Origin: Ginglymostoma cirratum
Taxonomy: Eukaryota
Reading direction: 5' to 3'
NCBI GenBank assembly: GCA_024137785.1
Contig: JAHRHZ010000062.1
Location: 27,390,244-27,454,243 of the forward strand
DNA: 64,000 bases
Shown here: positions 11,210 through 61,935 of the stretch, piece after piece
Layout: every line of letters starts with the position of its first letter
Numbering within the stretch: position 1 is the first letter of the stretch
Made by a program: the position numbers and the translations under genes
The notes under the pieces: model-generated
Told to the model about the DNA's origin: nothing
The model's database searches: none
Seen by the model: only the letters and a program-made list of their open reading frames with translations

Positions 11210-11262
11210 TCTGATGCTGCCTGGCCTGCTATGTTTCTCCAGCTCCAAATTGTGTTGTCTTA
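11210..11262 (+). mobile_element. Short fragment of Penelope-terminus-type repeat
   Basis: ctgatgctgcctggcctgctatgtttctccagctcca is near-identical to 31967-32003. Confidence 0.7.
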
Positions 11263-12094
11263 GGATCTGGTGGTGATGTTTTGATCCCAAGCAATTCTGA
11301 CCATGAGGAGCAGCTTCTATTGAGCTATTGCAAGACAGCTGTATACTTTACCATCTCCTTGGCCAATGCTAACTGCAGTAGTAGAAAGTCAACTGGGCTT
11401 CACAGCCTCAGCAACAGTCAAAAGCTGCAGTTTGTGGCACGTTCTCAAAAGCTTGATCTCCCAGAAGTTGCTGGCCAGAAGCATTTCAATGGTCCTGATG
11501 TGAGCAGCAGAAATATTCCAGCAACTATTGCTGAAGCCATAAAGAGGGGGAACCAGGAGAAGGGTTTGATTTAGGAAAATGTCTTTAAATAAATTCACTG
11601 GAAAGCCAAAAAAATTCCAGCAGTCGGTGTTCCAGCTGCAAAAACACCAAGAGGTCACATAGTCCTCCATGGTTTTAATCTTCGCTCCGGTGCTGTACGG
11701 AGAGGAAGACAGACTTCTGTTTGTTGCACAGAGAGCAGAGAAGAGAAGAGGCAAGAATATACCTCCCTATCCTATCATGGGAAACAAACCTTAACAAGTA
11801 TATATTGCATTTCTTGGGGAGGGAGGGAACCCAAATGGACAAAAGAAAATGCTAACAAAACACATTCTGAATGTATTGAAGTAGAAACCATTTAATCAGG
11901 AAAGCTGCTTCTTTCTAATTAACTGATCATAGCTCCAAACAGAAGTCACAGCTGACTAGCATTTCTGTCAGCTGCCATGTCAGTCTGTTTTGTGTTGTGT
12001 TAGAACGGCTGAGTCTCACAGCTGACTACTAAGCCAACAAGGGGAGATGGAGTTTGCTGATTTGCCCAAACTGAGAAGTCAGCTGTAAGACATG

Positions 12095-25516: not shown

Positions 25517-25750
25517 GGAGTAAGGCAATGAATGGGTCTCCAGCTAAACTACAGCAGTATTATTGTTGGCCAACAGGAAGCACTACGGTGACGGAGGCAC
25601 GGGTTTACAGAGAAACCAGGGGTCGCAGCAACAACGAGCCACATATCAAACGACCAATGAATGCGTTCATGGTGTGGGCAAAGGACGAGCGCAGGAAGAT
25701 ACTGCAGGCATTTCCAGACATGCATAACTCAAACATCAGCAAAATCTTGG
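25517..25750 (+). CDS. SOX6: SOX6 exon (234 nt), N-terminal part of the HMG box: [20 protein letters not shown]...[37 protein letters not shown](G)
   Basis: tttcag|GG acceptor and TTGG|gtgagt donor; [12 protein letters not shown] signature with SoxD-type [20 protein letters not shown]; phase 1-1. Confidence 0.97.
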
Positions 25751-25836
25751 GTGAGTGGCTGAAAGAAGTGTTTCAAACAATGCAACGGATACCCACTAAC
25801 AGCTTCCTCCTGGAGTAGTGTATCTTGTGTAAACTT

Positions 25837-26437
25837 GTATTGCTGATAAAAGATACATACTATTGAAGCATTTCATCCTCCACTCATCAGAGCAGGTGCA
25901 AGCATATCAAACTTGAAAGGGAACCACAATTTGCATCGCTTGAGAAAGGGTGCTGGTTGGATGGCAAGGGGAACCTATGGTATTGCCATAGGAATGCATC
26001 AGGGAACTATTGTCCCATATGCTTTTGTTTACTTCTGTTTTCAGAGAAGTGAGCCCTGTTTATGATTAAAAATATATCCCAGCAAAAATAAGTGAGCTGT
26101 GCACTGAGTCTGACTGATAATTTAATATTGGTTGTTAGTGTAATTCCTAGAACACCTAGGATTGTTCAGCTAGTGCTGTCCAAGCGCAAATGACATCTAA
26201 TATTGAACCCTATATTTTGGGTTTCGCAAAAATGGACTGGAGGAGAATCATTAGTACTCTGCCTCTTGCAAGCAGCCATATAAATATGCTGTTTGATACA
26301 ACCCACTTTCCAACCAAACAGCACTTTTTCTGAACCTGTATATAATGTTGTTCCCTTTGAAATTTGGTGTTCTTATATCTAACCTGAAGAGAGCAAGACA
26401 AAAAGCTTTGACAGCATATCTCTTTGTTCAGCAATAC
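25837..26437. mobile_element. ~600 bp element with ~135 bp diverged inverted arms, each holding a decayed hammerhead-like core
   Basis: Left arm reverse complement ...gttccctttcaagtttgat...CTGATGAgtggaggatGAAAtgcttc...cagcaatac versus right arm ...gttccctttgaaatttggt...CTGAAGAgagcaagacAAAAagctttgac...cagcaatac. Confidence 0.7.
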
Positions 26438-27299
26438 TTGAAACATTATTGTTACACTGTACGACTATGGAATCAGAAGTGTGGAGTAAGTTGGCGCTAG
26501 AAATTACTTACAAATCTGTAATCGATACATTAGCTAACTCTCACTTAGGAATAGAAATTTAGAATTTTAATACAGTTTCCCGTTTTACACTTAGTAGCAA
26601 TGACACCCTGATGCTGTCAATCAATGTAGGTATTCTGTCCACTCCACAGTGACAGATTATATTGGATACCACACCAACATTTCTAAGTCACATGATATTC
26701 CCTTATAATTACCGCTTGTTTGGATTTCCTCAAGTTCTTTCTATCATGGTTGTAGGATCCACTGAATCTTTGAAGTAACATGACAAAACTGACTTTGGTT
26801 CGTCATGAAGTATGTGCATTTGCTTTCCTGAATTAATATAGTAAAAAGAAAATAAAGGTAAGATGATTGCAGTTGCAAAAGATGTTAGCAATAGGAAGCG
26901 TAATCTTTACGTATAAGAATGCTGTTGAAATTCATCAAAGTCATAGAGTTATAAAAGATATTAGATGGTATTGATTAACTAGTTTACTTAATCGAATTAA
27001 GGATCAAAAGACATTAATGGAAAGTAATGTCAAATAAGTTGAGGATATGTATCATGAACAGCTTTTTCTTTTAAATTGTAATAAAGATTTCGATTAATCT
27101 AACGAATAATCTCTTTAAACAGCTGGTGAAAGCAAAAACAACATTTTTTAATAATTTGAAGCTATATTTCTCCAGCACAGATAAAGCCTGCATAAATTTT
27201 ACATTTTATGTTTGAAAGCTTTAAAGTTTTATTTTACTGTGACCAGCCTGAGTTTCTTTTCCTGCTAAACAAGAAAGCGACTGGTTTAGCTAGTGAGAA

Positions 27300-27520
27300 A
27301 CCAAAAGAACTGAAGATGCTGAAAAACAGAAACAAAAAGAGAAATCGATGGAAAAGCACAGCAGGTCTGACAACATCAGTAGAGAGAAATCCGAGTTAAT
27401 GTTTTGGGTCCAGTGACCTGAAGGTTCTGAGAAAGGGCCACTGGACCCCAAATGTTAACTCTGATTTCTCTCCATAGATGCTGCCAGACCTGCTGAGTTC
27501 TTCCGATAATCTGGTTTTAG
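27300..27520. mobile_element. Palindromic Penelope-terminus-type element
   Basis: 27359-27418 is the reverse complement of 27436-27495 with few mismatches. Confidence 0.8.
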
Positions 27521-27552
27521 CTTGGCTGGTGACTTAGCCTTGGGCACTCCTT

Positions 27553-28195
27553 GAACAGAATTTTAAGAGATGTCACTATGGGGAATGCACGTGGAAAGTT
27601 CCCATAAAATTCATTGCATGGCCTTCCAGCTACACACCTGCTTGCCTGCAACCTCTCAGAAATTTTATGGGACATAAGCAAGGCCTAGGGAGACCAAACC
27701 TCTTTTGCTTTAATTGAGTGGCTAATTAATTGTCAGTGCTTCCCCGCAGGCTGGAAATTTTAGCCGAGTAGGAGGCCAGGGATGTTGGGTCTTAGGTGGG
27801 AAAGTGGTAGAGGCTGTTCCATTTCTTATCCTTCTCTCCTGATCAGGTCAGCCTCCCTAAGTCTGCACCCCCTCATCCCAGTTGGAGTTCAATCTAGTCA
27901 GCCTTTTTAACTTCCCAACATCCTCCCTGGTGGCCTTGCACCTAATACCCCCGTCCTGTCCATGCCATAAGCCCTCTCTACTTAACTTTGTTTTCGGCTT
28001 CCAGCACTTAGGCTCATGGCAATACATTTTGACCAAAGGGTGGCCATCGCTCCTGGTGTTGTTTCTGGGACTGCAGAGCCTCCAGCCAAGAAATGTCAAA
28101 TGACTACAAAGCAGCTGATATTGGGATAGGCGCAGACCCTGCTGATATTTTTGGTGGCAGGGTGGCAAAATCCACTGTCCAAAAATTCCTGCCCA
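27553..28195. mobile_element. GC-richer non-autonomous DNA-transposon-like repeat
   Basis: Ends gaacagaatttt / aaaattcctgccc resemble the short TIR-like ends of the Harbinger relic at 51311-54377; local GC rise. Confidence 0.4.
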
Positions 28196-31100
28196 GTAGG
28201 TGAGAGTGCTGTTCACTTTAATAAGTGGAGAAAAATGGTTTGGTATTATGAGCAGCGTTTAGATTCAGAAACAGGCATGTAAGTTATTGAGTGCACTTAT
28301 AATCAGAAAATTCTTATCATGGAAAACCAAACAAATCTTCAGACACTGGACTTGCAGGTGAAATGATAGTCATTCCAAATATTCATCCTGCACAATCAAG
28401 CGATTTTGGTGGCTGATCTGGATACAGTCTCAGACAGAAGGGCAGCACTGTGGGAGCAGGAGCAACATCTTAGTTTGGTGTCGTGTCCAGCTAACAAAGC
28501 GGGAAGTAGTGCCTGCACTTTAGAAACCCAAATCCCATAAGCCCACTGGCAGATCAGCAGTTTATATCAATGAAGGGGATCAAAAGGCACAGGCTCCAAA
28601 GGCCAAAAAGCATTGAAAAACGGGTGGATCTGTCTGGCAGGCTGCGGTCTGGACACCACTGGCTTGGAATTTCTAATATCATGTTCAATAATTTAACATA
28701 CAGTTCTTTTATTTCTCCAGTTCAGCAGCTGAATTTATGCTGTAATGAAATGAGATATTACTTTCAGAGAAGTGCTGATTGGTATTTGTACAACGTTGAT
28801 TTGATTTAATTGAATACTGACTGATCATCACTCACACCACACCCCTGCCTCAATTGATAGCTACAAGGATTTATGATCGCATTATCCATAAAATAAAGCG
28901 TTAAGCATAACATCATAAATATCAATGAGTTCTATAATTATTAATTGAAAACTAGATCTTCTTAATATTAAATTGTTTCTACTGTGGAGAAGAATTTTAA
29001 AACTTAACTTTTGAAAGTTACTGAAGCACTTCCATTCACTGCTCTCAAGCTTAATTCATTGATAGTATGACCCAATTTATATAATGGATACATTCGGTTA
29101 TAAATTGAAAATCCTTCATTTCCCTCGATTATATTTCTGAATTTATGTTAGATTTAAAATATTTATTGGTCAAGTCTGCAATGGAACATGGCATGAAATA
29201 TGTCAATCCATTTCATTCAATTAGTTATTTATTATACGATCAAATAGTGTATCTCAGTACTTATTAATAATGTAATTTTGTTATAAAAGATAGGATCGTA
29301 CCACATGGGAAGGTTATCTCTTGCTGAATTGTTGTGAATTACTTTAACATGCAGATTATTTTCTGATATGACTGCCTCAAAAAGGAATTTCCTGCATATT
29401 TCTACTGAATAATAGATCTGTGCCTTGAAAGGATGGTGTGGAATGTTAAAGCATGAATAGTCCTATAAAATTTCTTAGCCACTTTAAAGATAACATTTAA
29501 TATCTTCGTTAAAGTGAATAGGGAGAAATTTCAGAGAACCAGATTATGCCTTTGTTTCAATGATCCCATGATGACATTCTAAGTCTGATTTTTACTGCAG
29601 TATAGACACAGAAATATGGATATGTTCATGGCAGAAATCTAGAGTGAGCGCACTGAAAGTACAGAACTGCGATAGCAATACATTCTCTGTGTATTCAAAA
29701 TTTGACGATCATTTTTGATTACGCTCAGACATATCAATAACAATTGGTTTCACGTGGTTGCAGTGCCAAAGTTTTGCCTTCATTTAATTTCACTTTTCAA
29801 TGATAGGTTCTTCTTGAAATTAGCTTTTTATACAATATTTTCGCAAATTATAGGTTTATGAAAAATTAACTTATTTGTTGAATAGCTGCTTGGGAACTAG
29901 AATCAGGTGAGCAGGTTTTGAATCATTCTGAAAGACCAAACCTACTTCCATTCATTTTTGTCATAGAGAACATCTGGTCTGTTAAACATGGAAATACAAA
30001 TTCATAGGAGAAGTATAAAATATTCTGCAGGTTTCTAATGCTTTTTAAGTCTATTCTGATGTCCAAGTTTGTGAAGTAGATTTGTGTTTTATTCTGTGTT
30101 GAGACTGAGCTGCCTAATGAATGACGAAGTGGCTTAGGAAACACAGGAATACCATTTTGCAATATTTATTCACAAGTCATAGAATCTTGACTTGAAACAT
30201 TATATTTGATAGCAAAGGCATCCATGAACAGTTTTTAAGAATTCAATTAAATATCAATATATTTCCTCTATAAGCAGTGATGTTCTAAATCTTTGGTGCC
30301 ATACAGTGCAATAAAAGCCCTGAAGAATGCCGACAAATAAATCCCCACCTTCTCCCCAACCCCACAGCCCCAAACACACAAATGTGTGGTGTGGAGAAAA
30401 GTGAGAAAAAATTGTATTTTTTAAAGTGAGTCACTCTGCAATCCAATTAGGAACCATAACTTAATACACCACGATGGTCATACATTTAATAGAATTTTTG
30501 TCTCGATCCTTTTTGTACTCATTGAGGTGAAGAATGCCAATCCTGCTGAGCAGAATATGTTTTATACCCAAAATTGACCTCCAAGGTTCCATTCAAAGGT
30601 TAGGTCAAAAATTGTTTGCTGAGCGTTACTTTATTGAAGCCTTGACCATACTAATGCCTGGTAAGAGTTACACTTGAATGGAAACAATTAATAAAAATAT
30701 TGCTCATTTAGCAGCCCAAGACTCAAGCCTCTCAAGACTGGAGACCCGTGACATATATATTGTGGTTCAAGCAGAGTGTGAACCTGCCCATATGCACCTT
30801 GCTCACAATTAAATTGCCAGTCATCAAAATGGAAAGCCTTTTTCTCCTTTAAGTACATTAAGTGATGGCATTTGCTTCTGCAATTTTTTTCAAGATGATG
30901 GGCTTTTAAAGTCACACAGGGTGACATAATAATACAAACAAAAGCAGCTTCACTTGATGTGCCCAGATGTAATAGCACATGAATTCCTGACCGCTGGTAC
31001 AGCACACCTGAAACCTGTAAAGGCAATCCTTTTGAGTACCCAAATCATTTGTTGTTTAAAAAAAAGTTAGTTTTCTCCTTTTAGAGCATTTTAAATTTGA

Positions 31101-31915
31101 GTAATAAATGAACTTGAGATTTTTTAATGTAGCATCTGTGAATGTGTTCTCACAACAGAAATTATTTTAAATCGGATTTGTAATTGTATTCAAAAGTATT
31201 AGAAGCGCAGAATTCATGGGTGGCAAGACAAGTGATGTTTTCATCTCTTCTCCCATGCTCTGAGGCAAAACATGCACCCCTAAAGACTCGAGTAGTACTA
31301 CTGGAAATGCAATCCAGATGTGTCAGGCAGGTTTCAGTACTGTACAGCTCTAACTGTTGAACTTACAACTAACTCTTTAGGGAGCTGTTGAAGGACCAAG
31401 CTGCTTCATTACCAGACATGCTTGTATGCATATTGAAAGTAAACGGTGCAGGTTCAAAGCAAGGAAAGTGGATCTTTTCTGGTGGGCATTAGCTGAGAAT
31501 GTACAATGTGAAAATTACAAATCATTTTGTCTTCTTGAAGAAAGGAATATTGTTTGGCACCAGCCTTGGATTTCATGGACAGATGGCTGCAGAAATTCTT
31601 TAAAGTGCAGGAAAGCTGTGATTGTGGCCAATACATATTGCAAAATAACTGTACAGCTATGATACAGGGCAGCTCTGTTTAAATTTAAAATGAGGAGTTC
31701 AGAAGTAAGTTACAGTAATTTCCAGGTTTATCAACTGATGGCAATGGGTAGAGGAAAACAAAAGAAAGCTATATTTACAAGATGACGAGAGGCTGGAACA
31801 GTGGCTTAGTGGGTTAAAACACTTGCCTTGTAAACAGGTGATACTGAGTTTGAATTGGCAATGCCTTTTAAAGGGCTCTTGTGGCACACTGGCTCAGAAG
31901 TAGGAGCACTACTAG

Positions 31916-31956
31916 AAGTTTTTCTGAAGAAGGGTCTCGACCCGAAACGTCAACTT
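31916..31956 (+). ncRNA. Minimal type I hammerhead ribozyme-like motif
   Basis: CTGAAGA-A-GGGT(ctcg)ACCC-GAAA-CGTC: core boxes, stem II, palindromic ACGT in place of stem III, GUC cleavage triplet at 31949-31951. Activity untested. Confidence 0.6.
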
Positions 31957-32017
31957 TCCTGCTCCTCTGATGCTGCTTGGCCTGCTGTGTTCATCCAGCT
32001 CCACAACGTTTTATCGT
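31919..32017 (+). mobile_element. 99-nt Penelope-terminus-type insertion with 11-bp target-site duplication
   Basis: Flanked by ACTACTAGAAG at 31908-31918 and 32018-32028. Confidence 0.85.
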
Positions 32018-34169
32018 ACTACTAGAAGGTGCAGGTTCAAGCTCCACCTGCTCCAAGGGTGTGTTATAACACATCTGATCAGATTGATTGATTTAAAAAT
32101 ATCTACAAGATGACTAGGAACAAAAATTTGATTAATCTCTTTAGCACTCAGCTAACCCTCTTGAAATTTGACTCATTGGCTCATTATTAGAATCTGTCCA
32201 CTTCACAGATGCAAAATTCTATGCACATTCCATAGGACCAAGAAATGTTTTAAATGTGTAAACTAAGGCCAATAGTAGTGGGAATCCAAAAACTTGAAAG
32301 GAGTAGTGTGGCAGTAATAATTAGGTGACACCGGACTTCAATTTTGAAAGCATGTGGGATGTAGGCAGCTTTAAGTTTCTGTAAAAGAGAGATAAATGGA
32401 AAAGACTCTACAGTGAGTCTTCATTTCAACTTAGTGAAGATGCAGGGAAGAAGACAAGTGATTATGATGTTGAGATGCTGAAGATGAAAGTGACAAATTG
32501 GGATGATGCCAAGGAGAAATTCAAAGTTGAGGGTGACGATAAACTGAAGGACAATGACTTAACATGGATCACCTGTATGAGCATATTTAGAAAGGAATGC
32601 ATCTGGTGATGTGGCAACAGTTGCCAATCAGCATTTTGATGAAAAAGTTCTTGTTTAAGATCTTAGATTAAAATAATGCACTACTAAAATATTACCATGC
32701 TAAACTGCCATTCCAAAAAGCATTTAAGACTCTCATTCTACATATTAGTGTTTTTGTGCAGAGAGGAATATGGTTCCCTGAGCGAGATCAGAATATACCC
32801 CAAAGCAAGACTAAAACATAGTAATCATAAATAATGGAAAAAAGATCTGTGGTCCTTCCGTATGAAGCTGATTCCATCTTTGATAACCATGAAAGAAAAA
32901 TAAACTCTTACCACAATTGTTCCACAGAATCTGTTTCTTGTTAAGTGATTTGTTGATGTTCTGTTTCCTCCATATTGGAAAAATCTGTTGGAAATTATGC
33001 CCCTTTATATAATATTTCTTCTACCATTTTCAGACAAGAGGGTCTACCTGTTGTAATTTTCCAAGGCAGGGACTCTTCCTTCAAAATTTTTCATTGTACA
33101 TCAATGGATAGTGTTTGTAATTTGTCTACGAAATCTAGGACAGTTCTGTTGGCAGCAATAGTGTATCTGTCGGTTCTAAGCTGTTGAGTGTATCAAGTGG
33201 CAAAATCAGGCCTGTCTTTAGCAATGCCCTGACTAAAATTTTGTCAGAAAGCACCAACCCTTAATTATAATTGATACCTTTATAATCACTGCATTTACTT
33301 TATTGCAGTAATGTCTTGAGCAACACCACACACACAAAAAACAAGATTTGTTACACTGTATCTCTGCCCAAAACAAAAAAAATACAAGCAGTTGGGATTA
33401 ATGCATTCTTGAAAATCCTATTTTTCTTTGTTAAACATTTGCAGCCTGAGAAAGAGTAAGTGACCTAATAAAACAGCTTACATGGGAGAGTGTGGACTTG
33501 TGTTGAAAACTTCATGTCACCTTATTTTAAATGTTCAAGATAAAGGAACTAGAGTCAGATTTACCATTAAAAAATTCCAGAGTTTTCATTTTTCTTTCTC
33601 TTTTGCCTGCTACTGCACTCTGCAGTTGTCCCCAGGAGAATTGTTAGTGTACAGTAGGGTTAAGCCTTCACATCCTTAAATTAATGCTTTCAACGTTTTT
33701 TACTTGGCAGTCTCCTCTGAAAGGAAGAGTTTAATGATAAAATGAAACATACGGTAGCTGGTTAACTACTTCAAGTTGTGCTTGATGTTTTTGGGCATTT
33801 TCTTTAAAGTAAGTATGTGACAGTGCAAGTAGACTGAATGCTTGTTTTCAAAGAATACTTTTTTTTGACAAATTAATCCTTTGGAATTTAGAGAAGAAGC
33901 ATTATTGTTCTGCCAAATTCTAAAAGAATAGAAATGTTTCAAACTCTTAATAAGCAGATTGGATTTAGAAATAAGTTATTGTGTAGGTTTCATATTGTGA
34001 TAGTTGCTTCAATAGTCAGAGGACTTCCTTATTTATAGAGTACATACACCTGCAGAATAACATTTGCAGATTGAATATTCATTTCAGCCAAATCAAGTGC
34101 TAACCCAAGATAACACAGTTCAGAACAGGAGAGAGAGAGAAGCTAACCAAATAACTAGACAATAGTAAA

Positions 34170-34345
34170 TAAAAACTGAAAGAACTGCAGATGCTGTAAA
34201 TCAAAACCAAACACAGAAATTGCTGGAAAAGCTCAGCATGTCTGGCAGCATCTGTGGAGAGAAATCAGAGTTAATGTTTCAGGTTGGGGTACCCTTCCTC
34301 AGAACTGATGATAGCTAGGAAAATGTCAGTTTATATTGCAGAAGA
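34170..34345 (-). mobile_element. Penelope-terminus-type repeat with hammerhead-like core
   Basis: Minus strand agtt-CTGAGGA-agggtaccccaacct-GAAA-catt-aact; remainder homologous to 27436-27500. Confidence 0.75.
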
Positions 34346-34701
34346 TAGGGTAGGGGGAGGAAGGAGTAATCTAAACAATGGTTCTGAGTAAATGAATCAG
34401 ATGGTACTTCCCTGGCGATAGGACATTCTTAAGGTACTGGTTTCAAGTCCACGGAGGAAGCCAATGTGTTTCAATGCAGCACCTCATACTGAAAAATCTG
34501 AGTACTTTGTCAGGATAACATTAAACTTATTTGTGGTGTCCTGCACAGTAAAATAGATTACTGATGCTCATAATCTTTGTTAGCCTTTTATTCCCAGTCA
34601 TTTTTAACCAGGCATAACTTAGCATTAACATTGAATTGTGTGCTTATGCAAACAGTGTCTTGATTACAATATCAGACAACCCATGTTCTCAGACAGTTTA
34701 A

Positions 34702-34980
<279 letters not shown>

Positions 34981-61459: not shown

Positions 61460-61935
61460 ATTCTTGCCTCTGAATCAAAAAGCTGTGAATTCAAGCCCCA
61501 CTCGAAGATTAGAGTTGGCCGACAGTACAATATCTGAAGGAGTGTTGTTTCCATTTGGATGAAATGTTTGAATAGACAGAGTCTTGGTCTGATTTGTATG
61601 ATTTATTTGTACCATTCATAAAAGGGATCCCAGTGTCACAATCAAGTTTCATTCCTGAAACGTGTCAAAAACTAATTGACTGATTATTTGAGAGATAGTA
61701 GGAACTGCAGCTACTGGAGAATCTGAGATAACAAGGTGTAGAGCTGGATGAACACAGCCGGCCAAGCAGCATCAGAGGATCATTTGACTGATCATTTGTC
61801 TTGCTTTTCTTAGTGTCACAAGAGCAAACTCACAGCAGTGCGTACCTACGCAACAAGAAAGAATATGGTCCAAGCAGGTTAGGATGTTAGGGTGTGCTTA
61901 TGACATTAGAGGCATTATAGCAATGCAACTTCTTC
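61460..61935 (+). mobile_element. Highly degraded SacSINE/Deu-type SINE with a nested insertion
   Basis: ttgcctctgaatca...gaattcaagccccactc head and gaggcattatagcaatgcaac tail, similar to 12445-12755. Confidence 0.55.
61691..61783 (-). mobile_element. Penelope-terminus-type short insertion with a probable 15-bp TSD
   Basis: Overlaps the reverse complement of 31963-32015; flanked by ttgactgattatttg (61676-61690) and ttgactgatcatttg (61784-61798). Confidence 0.75.

What the first reader, a model, noticed from the sequence alone, without database searches (positions are those of the whole stretch)
31908..32028. Young 99-nt mobile insertion placing an intact minimal hammerhead-ribozyme core in the sense strand of a SOX6 intron
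Seen: a 99-nt insert bounded by a perfect 11-bp duplication (ACTACTAGAAG), nested in an older tRNA-SINE, with its CpGs intact. It opens with CUGAAGA-A-[GGGU-cucg-ACCC]-GAAA-CGUC. Stem I could be UU/AA, or AAGUU(31916-20)/AACUU(31952-56) with a bulge, partly supplied by the target site. Established: Penelope-like elements carry minimal type I hammerheads whose stem III is a short palindrome and which cleave as dimers; an extra nucleotide after A9 is tolerated in a viroid hammerhead. Inference: a tiny non-autonomous PLE-mobilised unit puts a potential GUC cleavage site (after 31951) in the intron splitting the HMG box. It could cleave only by pairing with another copy.
Basis: partly seen in the sequence, partly recalled or inferred. 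Interest (0 to 1): 0.72.

Follow-up and report, generated by a model that had tools for sequence, protein, structure and literature searches.

The report
Penelope retrotransposon stub in SOX6 intron
This 99-base insert in an intron of a cartilaginous-fish SOX6 gene is one of about 40,000 genome-wide end pieces of a known kind of jumping gene that carry a tiny self-cutting RNA motif; it was likely made when copying ran off the front of the element's RNA, and it is likely harmless to SOX6.

Summary
The 11-bp duplication is a true target-site duplication: two related organisms have the empty site. The insert lies sense in the SOX6 HMG-box intron and carries a minimal hammerhead core.

It is not a separate mini-element. 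96 of its 99 nt are identical to the end of a longer copy that runs into an endonuclease frame; the parent looks like a Neptune-type Penelope-like element. The genome holds 41,486 intact cores. SOX6 carries four sense-strand cores with intact stems II and III and shows no sense depletion. Stem I here is only 2 bp, and the predicted fold is inactive, so cleavage of SOX6 RNA is unlikely.

The point of interest is family-wide. 33 of 80 young copies start within 10 nt of the CUGA and none at the cut site, often with extra Ts. This likely marks the element's RNA start, copied from RNA that was uncut or rejoined. No usable RNA data were available. The scan reached the same reading earlier on other DNA of this genome.

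The parts
31908..31918 (+). Left copy of the 11-bp target-site duplication
   Evidence: single copy at the empty site in related organisms
31919..32017 (+). 99-nt insert: terminal repeat (pLTR) / 5' UTR piece of a Neptune-type Penelope-like element, ending at the short, tail-less 3' site
   Evidence: 31921-32016 is 96/96 identical to the end of long copy L004; 3' ends of the family are bimodal near +94 and +128
31919..31920 (+). Two extra T not present in long copies (likely RT or polymerase stutter at the template end)
   Evidence: long copies read CATTT-CTGA; T-run longer than 3 in 13 of 30 short and 1 of 25 long copies
31922..31923 (+). 5' strand of the 2-bp stem I (UU)
   Evidence: 43 of 45 copies of this subfamily have a 2-bp stem I
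31924..31931 (+). Hammerhead core CUGAAGA plus the extra A between positions 9 and 10.1
   Evidence: sequence; descriptor in PMC4209133
31932..31943 (+). Stem-loop II, GGGU-CUCG-ACCC
   Evidence: pair probabilities 0.65-0.93
31944..31951 (+). GAAA, loop-less palindromic stem III ACGU (31947-50) and C17; putative cut after 31951
   Evidence: sequence
31952..31953 (+). 3' strand of the 2-bp stem I (AA)
32018..32028 (+). Right copy of the target-site duplication
31871..32107 (+). Old tRNA-like SINE-type host repeat, split by the insert (ends approximate)
31887..31912 (-). ~26-bp micro-inversion inside the host repeat, older than the insert
   Evidence: reverse complement matches 7 of 7 paralogues tested; related organisms align through it
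25576..25750 (+). SOX6 exon with the first half of the HMG box (start approximate)
34745..34962 (+). SOX6 exon with the second half of the HMG box (end approximate)

Best explanation
The insert is a short, recent copy of the hammerhead-bearing terminal repeat of a very abundant Penelope-like retrotransposon (likely Neptune clade), likely made when reverse transcriptase started about 95 nt into the element's RNA and ran off its 5' end, and it is likely inert in the SOX6 intron. Steps: (1) shown: the same sequence sits at the 3' end of long RT+GIY-YIG copies and, in one copy (L158), directly ahead of the ORF start; (2) inferred from TSD and empty site: the endonuclease nicked both strands 11 bp apart; (3) inferred from the two 3' ends and the Anolis PAc biochemistry: RT began at the tail-less one of two internal start sites about 34 nt apart; (4) inferred: transcripts start at the initiator-like CCATTT just before CUGA, so copying from the 5'-UTR start site gives 100- or 130-nt products with a fixed 5' end and some T stutter, while copying from the 3' repeat gives long products; (5) inferred: templates were uncut or rejoined at the hammerhead; (6) predicted: this copy does not cleave alone, and its 2-bp stem I makes even a dimer weak without the element's protein.
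For: Parent: 96/96 identity to L004; RT motif LRYIDD, linker CX4CX2C and GIY-YIG (Pfam E 1.6e-5) upstream in L011 and 13 other long copies examined; repeat + tail + MPTLKK ORF start in L158. Abundance: 41,486 intact cores, control 0; 41 BLAST pieces in 264 kb. 5' ends in a sample picked by a 3' 26-mer: 33 of 80 unmasked arms at -7..+2, 1 between -8 and -80, 0 at +26..+32. Independent listing: 44 short, 55 long, 1 unclear of the first 100 of 1467 (counted by eye). T-run longer than 3 in 13 of 30 short and 1 of 25 long, Fisher p=0.0013. Short copies split 16 tailed and 14 tail-less; 23 of 31 head-to-head pairs have exactly one tail. Inertness: folds; 25 sense and 15 antisense pieces within SOX6, p=0.15; 4 sense and 3 antisense cores with intact stems II and III; no second core with <=1 mismatch on the sense strand of this intron. 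In PAc the hammerhead needed the element's protein and was dispensable for insertion in vitro (PMC11167929).
Against: No RNA data: no RNA holder was listed and only contigs could be laid, so the transcription start is not shown. I saw no extra cap-like G at the junctions of short copies with a clear TSD (by eye). Some extra Ts may be target-site microhomology. Spacing from CCATTT to a DPE-like motif does not match exactly (by eye; consensus from PMC2377424 and recall). Only one copy (L158) shows repeat joined to ORF start, and it lacks the hammerhead itself. Nearest-neighbour energies do not model the hammerhead core. The SOX6 orientation counts are small and cannot detect weak selection. Clade assignment rests on the linker motif, not a tree.
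Confidence: 0.72

Rival explanations
1. Same origin, but the fixed 5' end is an RT stop or a nuclease cut rather than the RNA start: RT stalls before the C-rich tract (for example under a poly(C)-binding protein), or the endonuclease trims at the ATT motif.
For: The boundary abuts CCCCTTCCCCTCCCCC. PAc endonuclease prefers ATT at its ORF-pLTR junction (PMC11167929). No cap G was seen.
Against: Other C-tracts further upstream collect almost no ends (1 of 80 between -8 and -80). A DNA cut would not add Ts, though a stall could.
Confidence: 0.2
2. The short form is a self-propagating non-autonomous element: short copies keep an internal promoter and RT start sites and are themselves recopied.
For: About half of core-bearing copies are short with a common start. 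Penelope promoters are internal in Drosophila (PMC2377424 passages). Non-autonomous pLTR derivatives are described (bioRxiv 10.64898/2026.07.22.740005).
Against: The focal variant, including the rarer TTATCG end, is shared with long copies. Short and long copies share the same core. No tandem units lie near the locus. I did not build a tree to look for short-only lineages.
Confidence: 0.15
3. The insert cleaves SOX6 pre-mRNA after 31951 by pairing with another copy and so lowers or truncates SOX6.
For: All core nucleotides and the ACGU palindrome are intact and in sense. An engineered fast hammerhead in a zebrafish intron cut expression up to 20-fold (PMC11856399 abstract). Potential partners are abundant. 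A second family has a 5' strand that could give 4 bp of stem I with this copy.
Against: 2-bp stem I; the hammerhead-shaped dimer scores -1.9 to -3.1 kcal/mol against a -24.1 minimum. The nearest intact sense partner found is 108 kb upstream, and the second-family copy in this intron has a broken core. No sense depletion. Minimal hammerheads cleave slowly even as dimers (PMC4209133); 1 of 9 Xenopus dimers cleaved.
Confidence: 0.04

Closest known systems
[quoted passage not shown]
   Same: CUGANGA-N-stem II-GAAA core, extra nucleotide before G10.1-C11.1, loop-less palindromic stem III, mostly single dispersed copies related to truncated PLEs, several families per genome.
   Different: Stem II is 4 bp and stem I only 2 bp here (4-5 bp in Schistosoma; 2 bp also in D. 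virilis). 41,486 intact cores against about 4,000 and 9,000 reported for coelacanth and Xenopus (other descriptors). No cartilaginous fish is named in the parts read.
Neptune-clade EN+ Penelope-like elements (PMC8557442, passages read)
   Same: RT followed by C-terminal GIY-YIG, CX2-5CxxC linker, pLTR, inverted 5'-truncated partner, 30-40-bp tail at one end.
   Different: The passages describe variable 5' truncation; a dominant fixed 5' end just before the hammerhead was not in what I read.
Poseidon of Anolis carolinensis, PAc (PMC11167929; parts 1-2 of 4 read, text supplements searched)
   Same: Two internal RT start sites that define the tail; hammerhead at the pLTR-ORF junction; no RNA ends found at the cut site.
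   Different: In PAc the ORF starts inside the hammerhead; here the ATG lies about 170 nt downstream of CUGA (inferred). The clade is probably different.
Non-LTR retrozymes (bioRxiv 10.64898/2026.07.22.740005; parts 1-3 of 5 read)
   Same: Short non-coding, hammerhead-bearing, pLTR-related sequence; monomers dispersed, many in introns.
   Different: Retrozymes are defined by tandem units each with a hammerhead; this is a solitary TSD-flanked copy identical to an autonomous-type terminus.
Conserved intronic hammerheads of amniotes such as RECK (recalled; only search listings seen)
   Same: Sense-strand hammerhead in a vertebrate intron.
   Different: Those are recalled as conserved and stable as monomers; this one is lineage-specific, absent from close relatives, and minimal.

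Membership tests
min-HHR of metazoan PLEs | Core CUGANGA...GAAA...UH | tested here: met
min-HHR of metazoan PLEs | Extra nucleotide before a G10.1-C11.1 stem II | tested here: met
   A at 31931; A in 136 of the 141 cores of the census (summed over families)
min-HHR of metazoan PLEs | Palindromic 15.2-16.2 with no loop III | tested here: met
   ACGU; a third family has AGCU
min-HHR of metazoan PLEs | Covariation across families | tested here: met
   Three families: stem I UU/AA, AGUU/AACU, UCAC/GUGA; stem II GGGU/ACCC versus GGAG/CUCC. Few lineages; the third family has 2-3 copies; no formal statistic, because alignment A1 misplaces it.
min-HHR of metazoan PLEs | Stem I of 4-5 bp next to the core | tested here: not met
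   2 bp in 43 of 45 copies of this subfamily; 3-4 bp in 32 of 39 AAG-subfamily copies. A 2-bp helix I is described for the D. virilis variant (PMC4209133), so this makes it a variant, not a non-member.
min-HHR of metazoan PLEs | Self-cleavage as a dimer | not testable with these tools
   Energy model disfavours it; needs an assay
EN+ PLE (parent) | Single ORF with RT and C-terminal GIY-YIG | tested here: met
   Every copy seen is broken or truncated; Pfam did not score the RT fragment, so RT rests on its motifs.
EN+ PLE (parent) | pLTR at both ends, inverted partner, optional 30-40-bp tail, TSD | tested here: met
Neptune clade | CX2-5CxxC linker between RT and EN | tested here: met
   CNRSKCYTC in long copies; the feature is shared with Nematis (PMC8557442)
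Neptune clade | RT phylogeny with reference PLEs | not tested
   No reference PLE set was fetched
Non-LTR retrozyme | Tandem units each with a hammerhead | tested here: not met
   Single unit between TSDs
Non-LTR retrozyme | Circular RNA | not testable with these tools
   No raw RNA reads were listed
Independent non-autonomous element | Own ends and lineage distinct from the autonomous element | tested here: inconclusive
   Fixed 5' end yes; sequence identical to a long copy; no tree built

The most novel reading that the evidence does not exclude
Tens of thousands of intact minimal hammerheads in shark introns, this SOX6 one included, are latent cut sites. When Penelope elements are expressed, their protein or a partner transcript (for example the second family, whose AGUU strand could supply a 4-bp stem I to this copy) completes the ribozyme in trans and cleaves host pre-mRNAs, making transposon activation a genome-wide knock-down switch.
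Probability: 0.05. Interest if true: 0.8.

Novelty: new member of a known kind. Interest (0 to 1): 0.24.

Why it matters
For SOX6 it probably does not matter: it is a recent passenger among about 41,000 like it. The family matters modestly. How Penelope-like elements replicate, and whether their hammerheads cut during the cycle, are open questions (PMC11167929, PMC6765202 passages). Thousands of young copies record where RT started (two sites) and stopped (one sharp site just before the hammerhead, no clear peak at the cut site). That gives a testable prediction for the RNA start and suggests templates are uncut or rejoined. The youngest subfamily spread with a 2-bp stem I while another has 3-4 bp, which fits a ribozyme that is dispensable or protein-dependent. 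If the trans-cleavage reading were true, it would link transposon activity to host gene knock-down.

Tried and rejected
Rfam scan: no hammerhead hit; uninformative for minimal forms.

RNA evidence: no RNA holder listed; only contigs could be laid, so no ends or expression. Organism A runs did not bridge the site.

A fixed 'G-TTTTT' start (cap G, or a vestige of a second arm ending at the cut site) was suggested. Rejected as query bias: 0 of 44 short copies show G before a run of 5 or more Ts (by eye).

Peak of 5' ends at the cut site: 0 of 80. The genome-wide pattern (3555 matches) was swamped by a subfamily with an extra A (87 of the first 100 begin CA). Of the 5 fetched non-CA matches, 2 were true junctions, 2 internal deletions and 1 masked. 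Controls gave 242 matches at +30 and 100 at +26, with about 6 and 2 of 12 fetched being true junctions. With assumed filter efficiencies this is roughly 460, 380 and 70 ends, against roughly 20,000 at the fixed start. There is no large peak; a small excess is not excluded.

Target-supplied stem I: rejected as an active fold. Partner in the same intron: none intact. Formal pair counts were not run because alignment A1 shifts the third family by one column. Sequence look-up in earlier findings gave nothing.

Lunse et al. (PMC5785218) was not held; I know it only through a review's passages. The PAc text supplements had no hits; its supplementary figures and the bioRxiv supplements were not seen and could show a 5' boundary. 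Paper searches and the parts read showed no description of the fixed 5' end; that is not proof of absence.

Full report
Observation. The 11-mer is at 31908-31918 and 32018-32028. It is a true TSD: a contig of run X15 skips exactly 110 nt with 11 letters fitting both sides, and contigs of X2 and X11 go from 31918 directly into the right flank. These runs differ from the window by roughly 3-6% in the flanks, so the insert is younger than those splits. The hammerhead letters are as described. The descriptor hit once in the window and never in 100 shuffles. Rfam did not score it. The flanking exons encode the two halves of an HMG box; the downstream one is 100% identical to cartilaginous-fish SOX6. 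Eleven SOX6 exon pieces map in order on + across 228 kb, and the intron is 25751-34744. The host is an old tRNA-like repeat.

What it is. The first genome search returned near-identical copies, several continuing upstream into shared sequence. That sequence is a C-rich 3' UTR, a GIY-YIG domain (Pfam E 1.6e-5), a CX4CX2C linker and an RT. Window 31921-32016 is 96/96 identical to the end of long copy L004. In L158 the 3' part of the same repeat and its tail run on into the ORF start MPTLKK, so the repeat is both terminus and 5' UTR, as in PLE pseudo-LTRs. The linker points to Neptune or Nematis (PMC8557442 passages); no tree was built. Exact counts are 1206 for a 26-mer of the youngest subfamily and 41,486 for the intact core across subfamilies. 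There were 41 BLAST pieces in 264 kb, which would extrapolate to about 680,000 if that region is typical.

Ends. I sampled 90 loci from the first 100 listed matches of the 3' 26-mer, which does not select on the 5' end. This gave 93 arms, 13 masked at the 5' side. Of 80, counting from the C of CUGA: 33 start at -7..+2, 13 at +4..+58, none at +26..+32, one at -39, and 33 at 81 nt or more upstream. For two arms the aligner picked a neighbouring arm. An independent listing gave 44 short, 55 long and 1 unclear of 100 (by eye; the pattern drops short copies with T at -13). 3' ends cluster near +94 and +128, the PLE tail. 23 of 31 head-to-head pairs carry the tail on exactly one arm, and 20 of the 21 pairs with an outer repeat do (loci not a random sample). 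Short copies more often have a lengthened T-run (13 of 30 against 1 of 25).

Mechanism. In Anolis PAc, RT starts at two internal sites that define the tail, both strands are nicked and extended, and the hammerhead needs the protein and is dispensable for insertion (PMC11167929). A transcript starting in the upstream repeat (internal promoter in D. virilis, PMC2377424 passages) and reading through the downstream repeat holds the RT start sites twice. Starting at the 5' pair gives 100- or 130-nt run-off products; starting at the 3' pair gives long ones. This accounts for the near even split, the sharp boundary at an initiator-like CCATTT (consensus recalled) and the stutter. It is inference; an RT stall at the C-tract is the main rival. 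Copies span the cut site and none of 80 begin there, so templates were likely uncut or rejoined. The genome-wide test of this was confounded and gives only a rough 'no large peak'.

Is the ribozyme real and active here? Across three families in the fetched DNA the core is kept while stems I, II and III change in compensating ways, so the motif was selected in source elements. In this subfamily stem I is 2 bp (43 of 45), against 3-4 bp in the AAG subfamily. For the focal RNA, stem II forms, the core-adjacent UU/AA pairs have p<=0.001, and the minimum-energy fold pairs the core UGA across the cut site. The hammerhead-shaped dimer is about 21 kcal/mol above the dimer minimum (the model ignores core and tertiary contacts). 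Published minimal hammerheads are inactive as monomers and slow as dimers (PMC4209133; review passages). SOX6 carries 25 sense and 15 antisense pieces, with 4 sense and 3 antisense cores intact in stems II and III. An efficient intronic hammerhead strongly lowers expression in zebrafish (PMC11856399 abstract), so this tolerance argues against efficient cleavage, though the counts are small. The nearest intact sense partner found is 108 kb upstream, and the second-family copy in this intron is broken. For the other side: the core is intact, partners are plentiful, and a second family could supply a 4-bp stem I in trans.

Comparison and novelty. It works like, and belongs to, the dispersed single min-HHRs that Cervera and De la Pena linked to truncated PLEs, as a short-stem-I variant. 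It is not a retrozyme by the tandem criterion. I did not find the fixed 5' end in five paper searches or the parts read, but Lunse et al. and several supplements were not seen. I wrote my reading down before opening earlier notes; the eight notes listed on other DNA of this genome also call these PLE end pieces, most with the same fixed-start idea. They are not independent evidence.

Verdict. Real and correctly seen, but an ordinary member of a known kind with no sign of a role in SOX6. Interest 0.24, owed to the family-wide record of how PLE copying starts and stops.

Noticed in passing
window 31887-31912: A ~26-bp micro-inversion inside the host repeat, overlapping the TSD and shared with related organisms; it creates the apparent A-box TGGCTCAG.
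   Followed up: partly
window 31794-31856: A second tRNA-like old repeat just upstream of the host, with one paralogue found at 81%.
   Followed up: no
window 27390-27520 (+) and 34200-34330 (-): Decayed copies of a second hammerhead family (AGUU/AACU stem I) in the same SOX6 intron; it shares a downstream GATGCTGC...CCTGCTG...TCCAGC stretch with the focal family, a candidate protein-binding or RT-start structure.
   Followed up: partly
window 11210-11263 (+) and 61691-61782 (-): Two older fragments of the focal family lacking the hammerhead.
   Followed up: no
L215:2868-2912, L140:3109-3153, L196: A third hammerhead family with UCAC/GUGA stem I, GGAG/CUCC stem II and AGCU palindrome.
   Followed up: partly
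L004 and L006: The two arms of single head-to-head insertions differ at +93 (G versus T), as if copied from two different RNA molecules or from two repeats of one transcript.
   Followed up: no
L032: A focal-family copy appears to be inserted into the start of a second-family hammerhead copy.
   Followed up: no
subfamilies: Stem I length differs by subfamily (AAGU 4 bp, AAGC 3 bp, AG and AA 2 bp); the youngest-looking subfamily has the shortest.
   Followed up: partly
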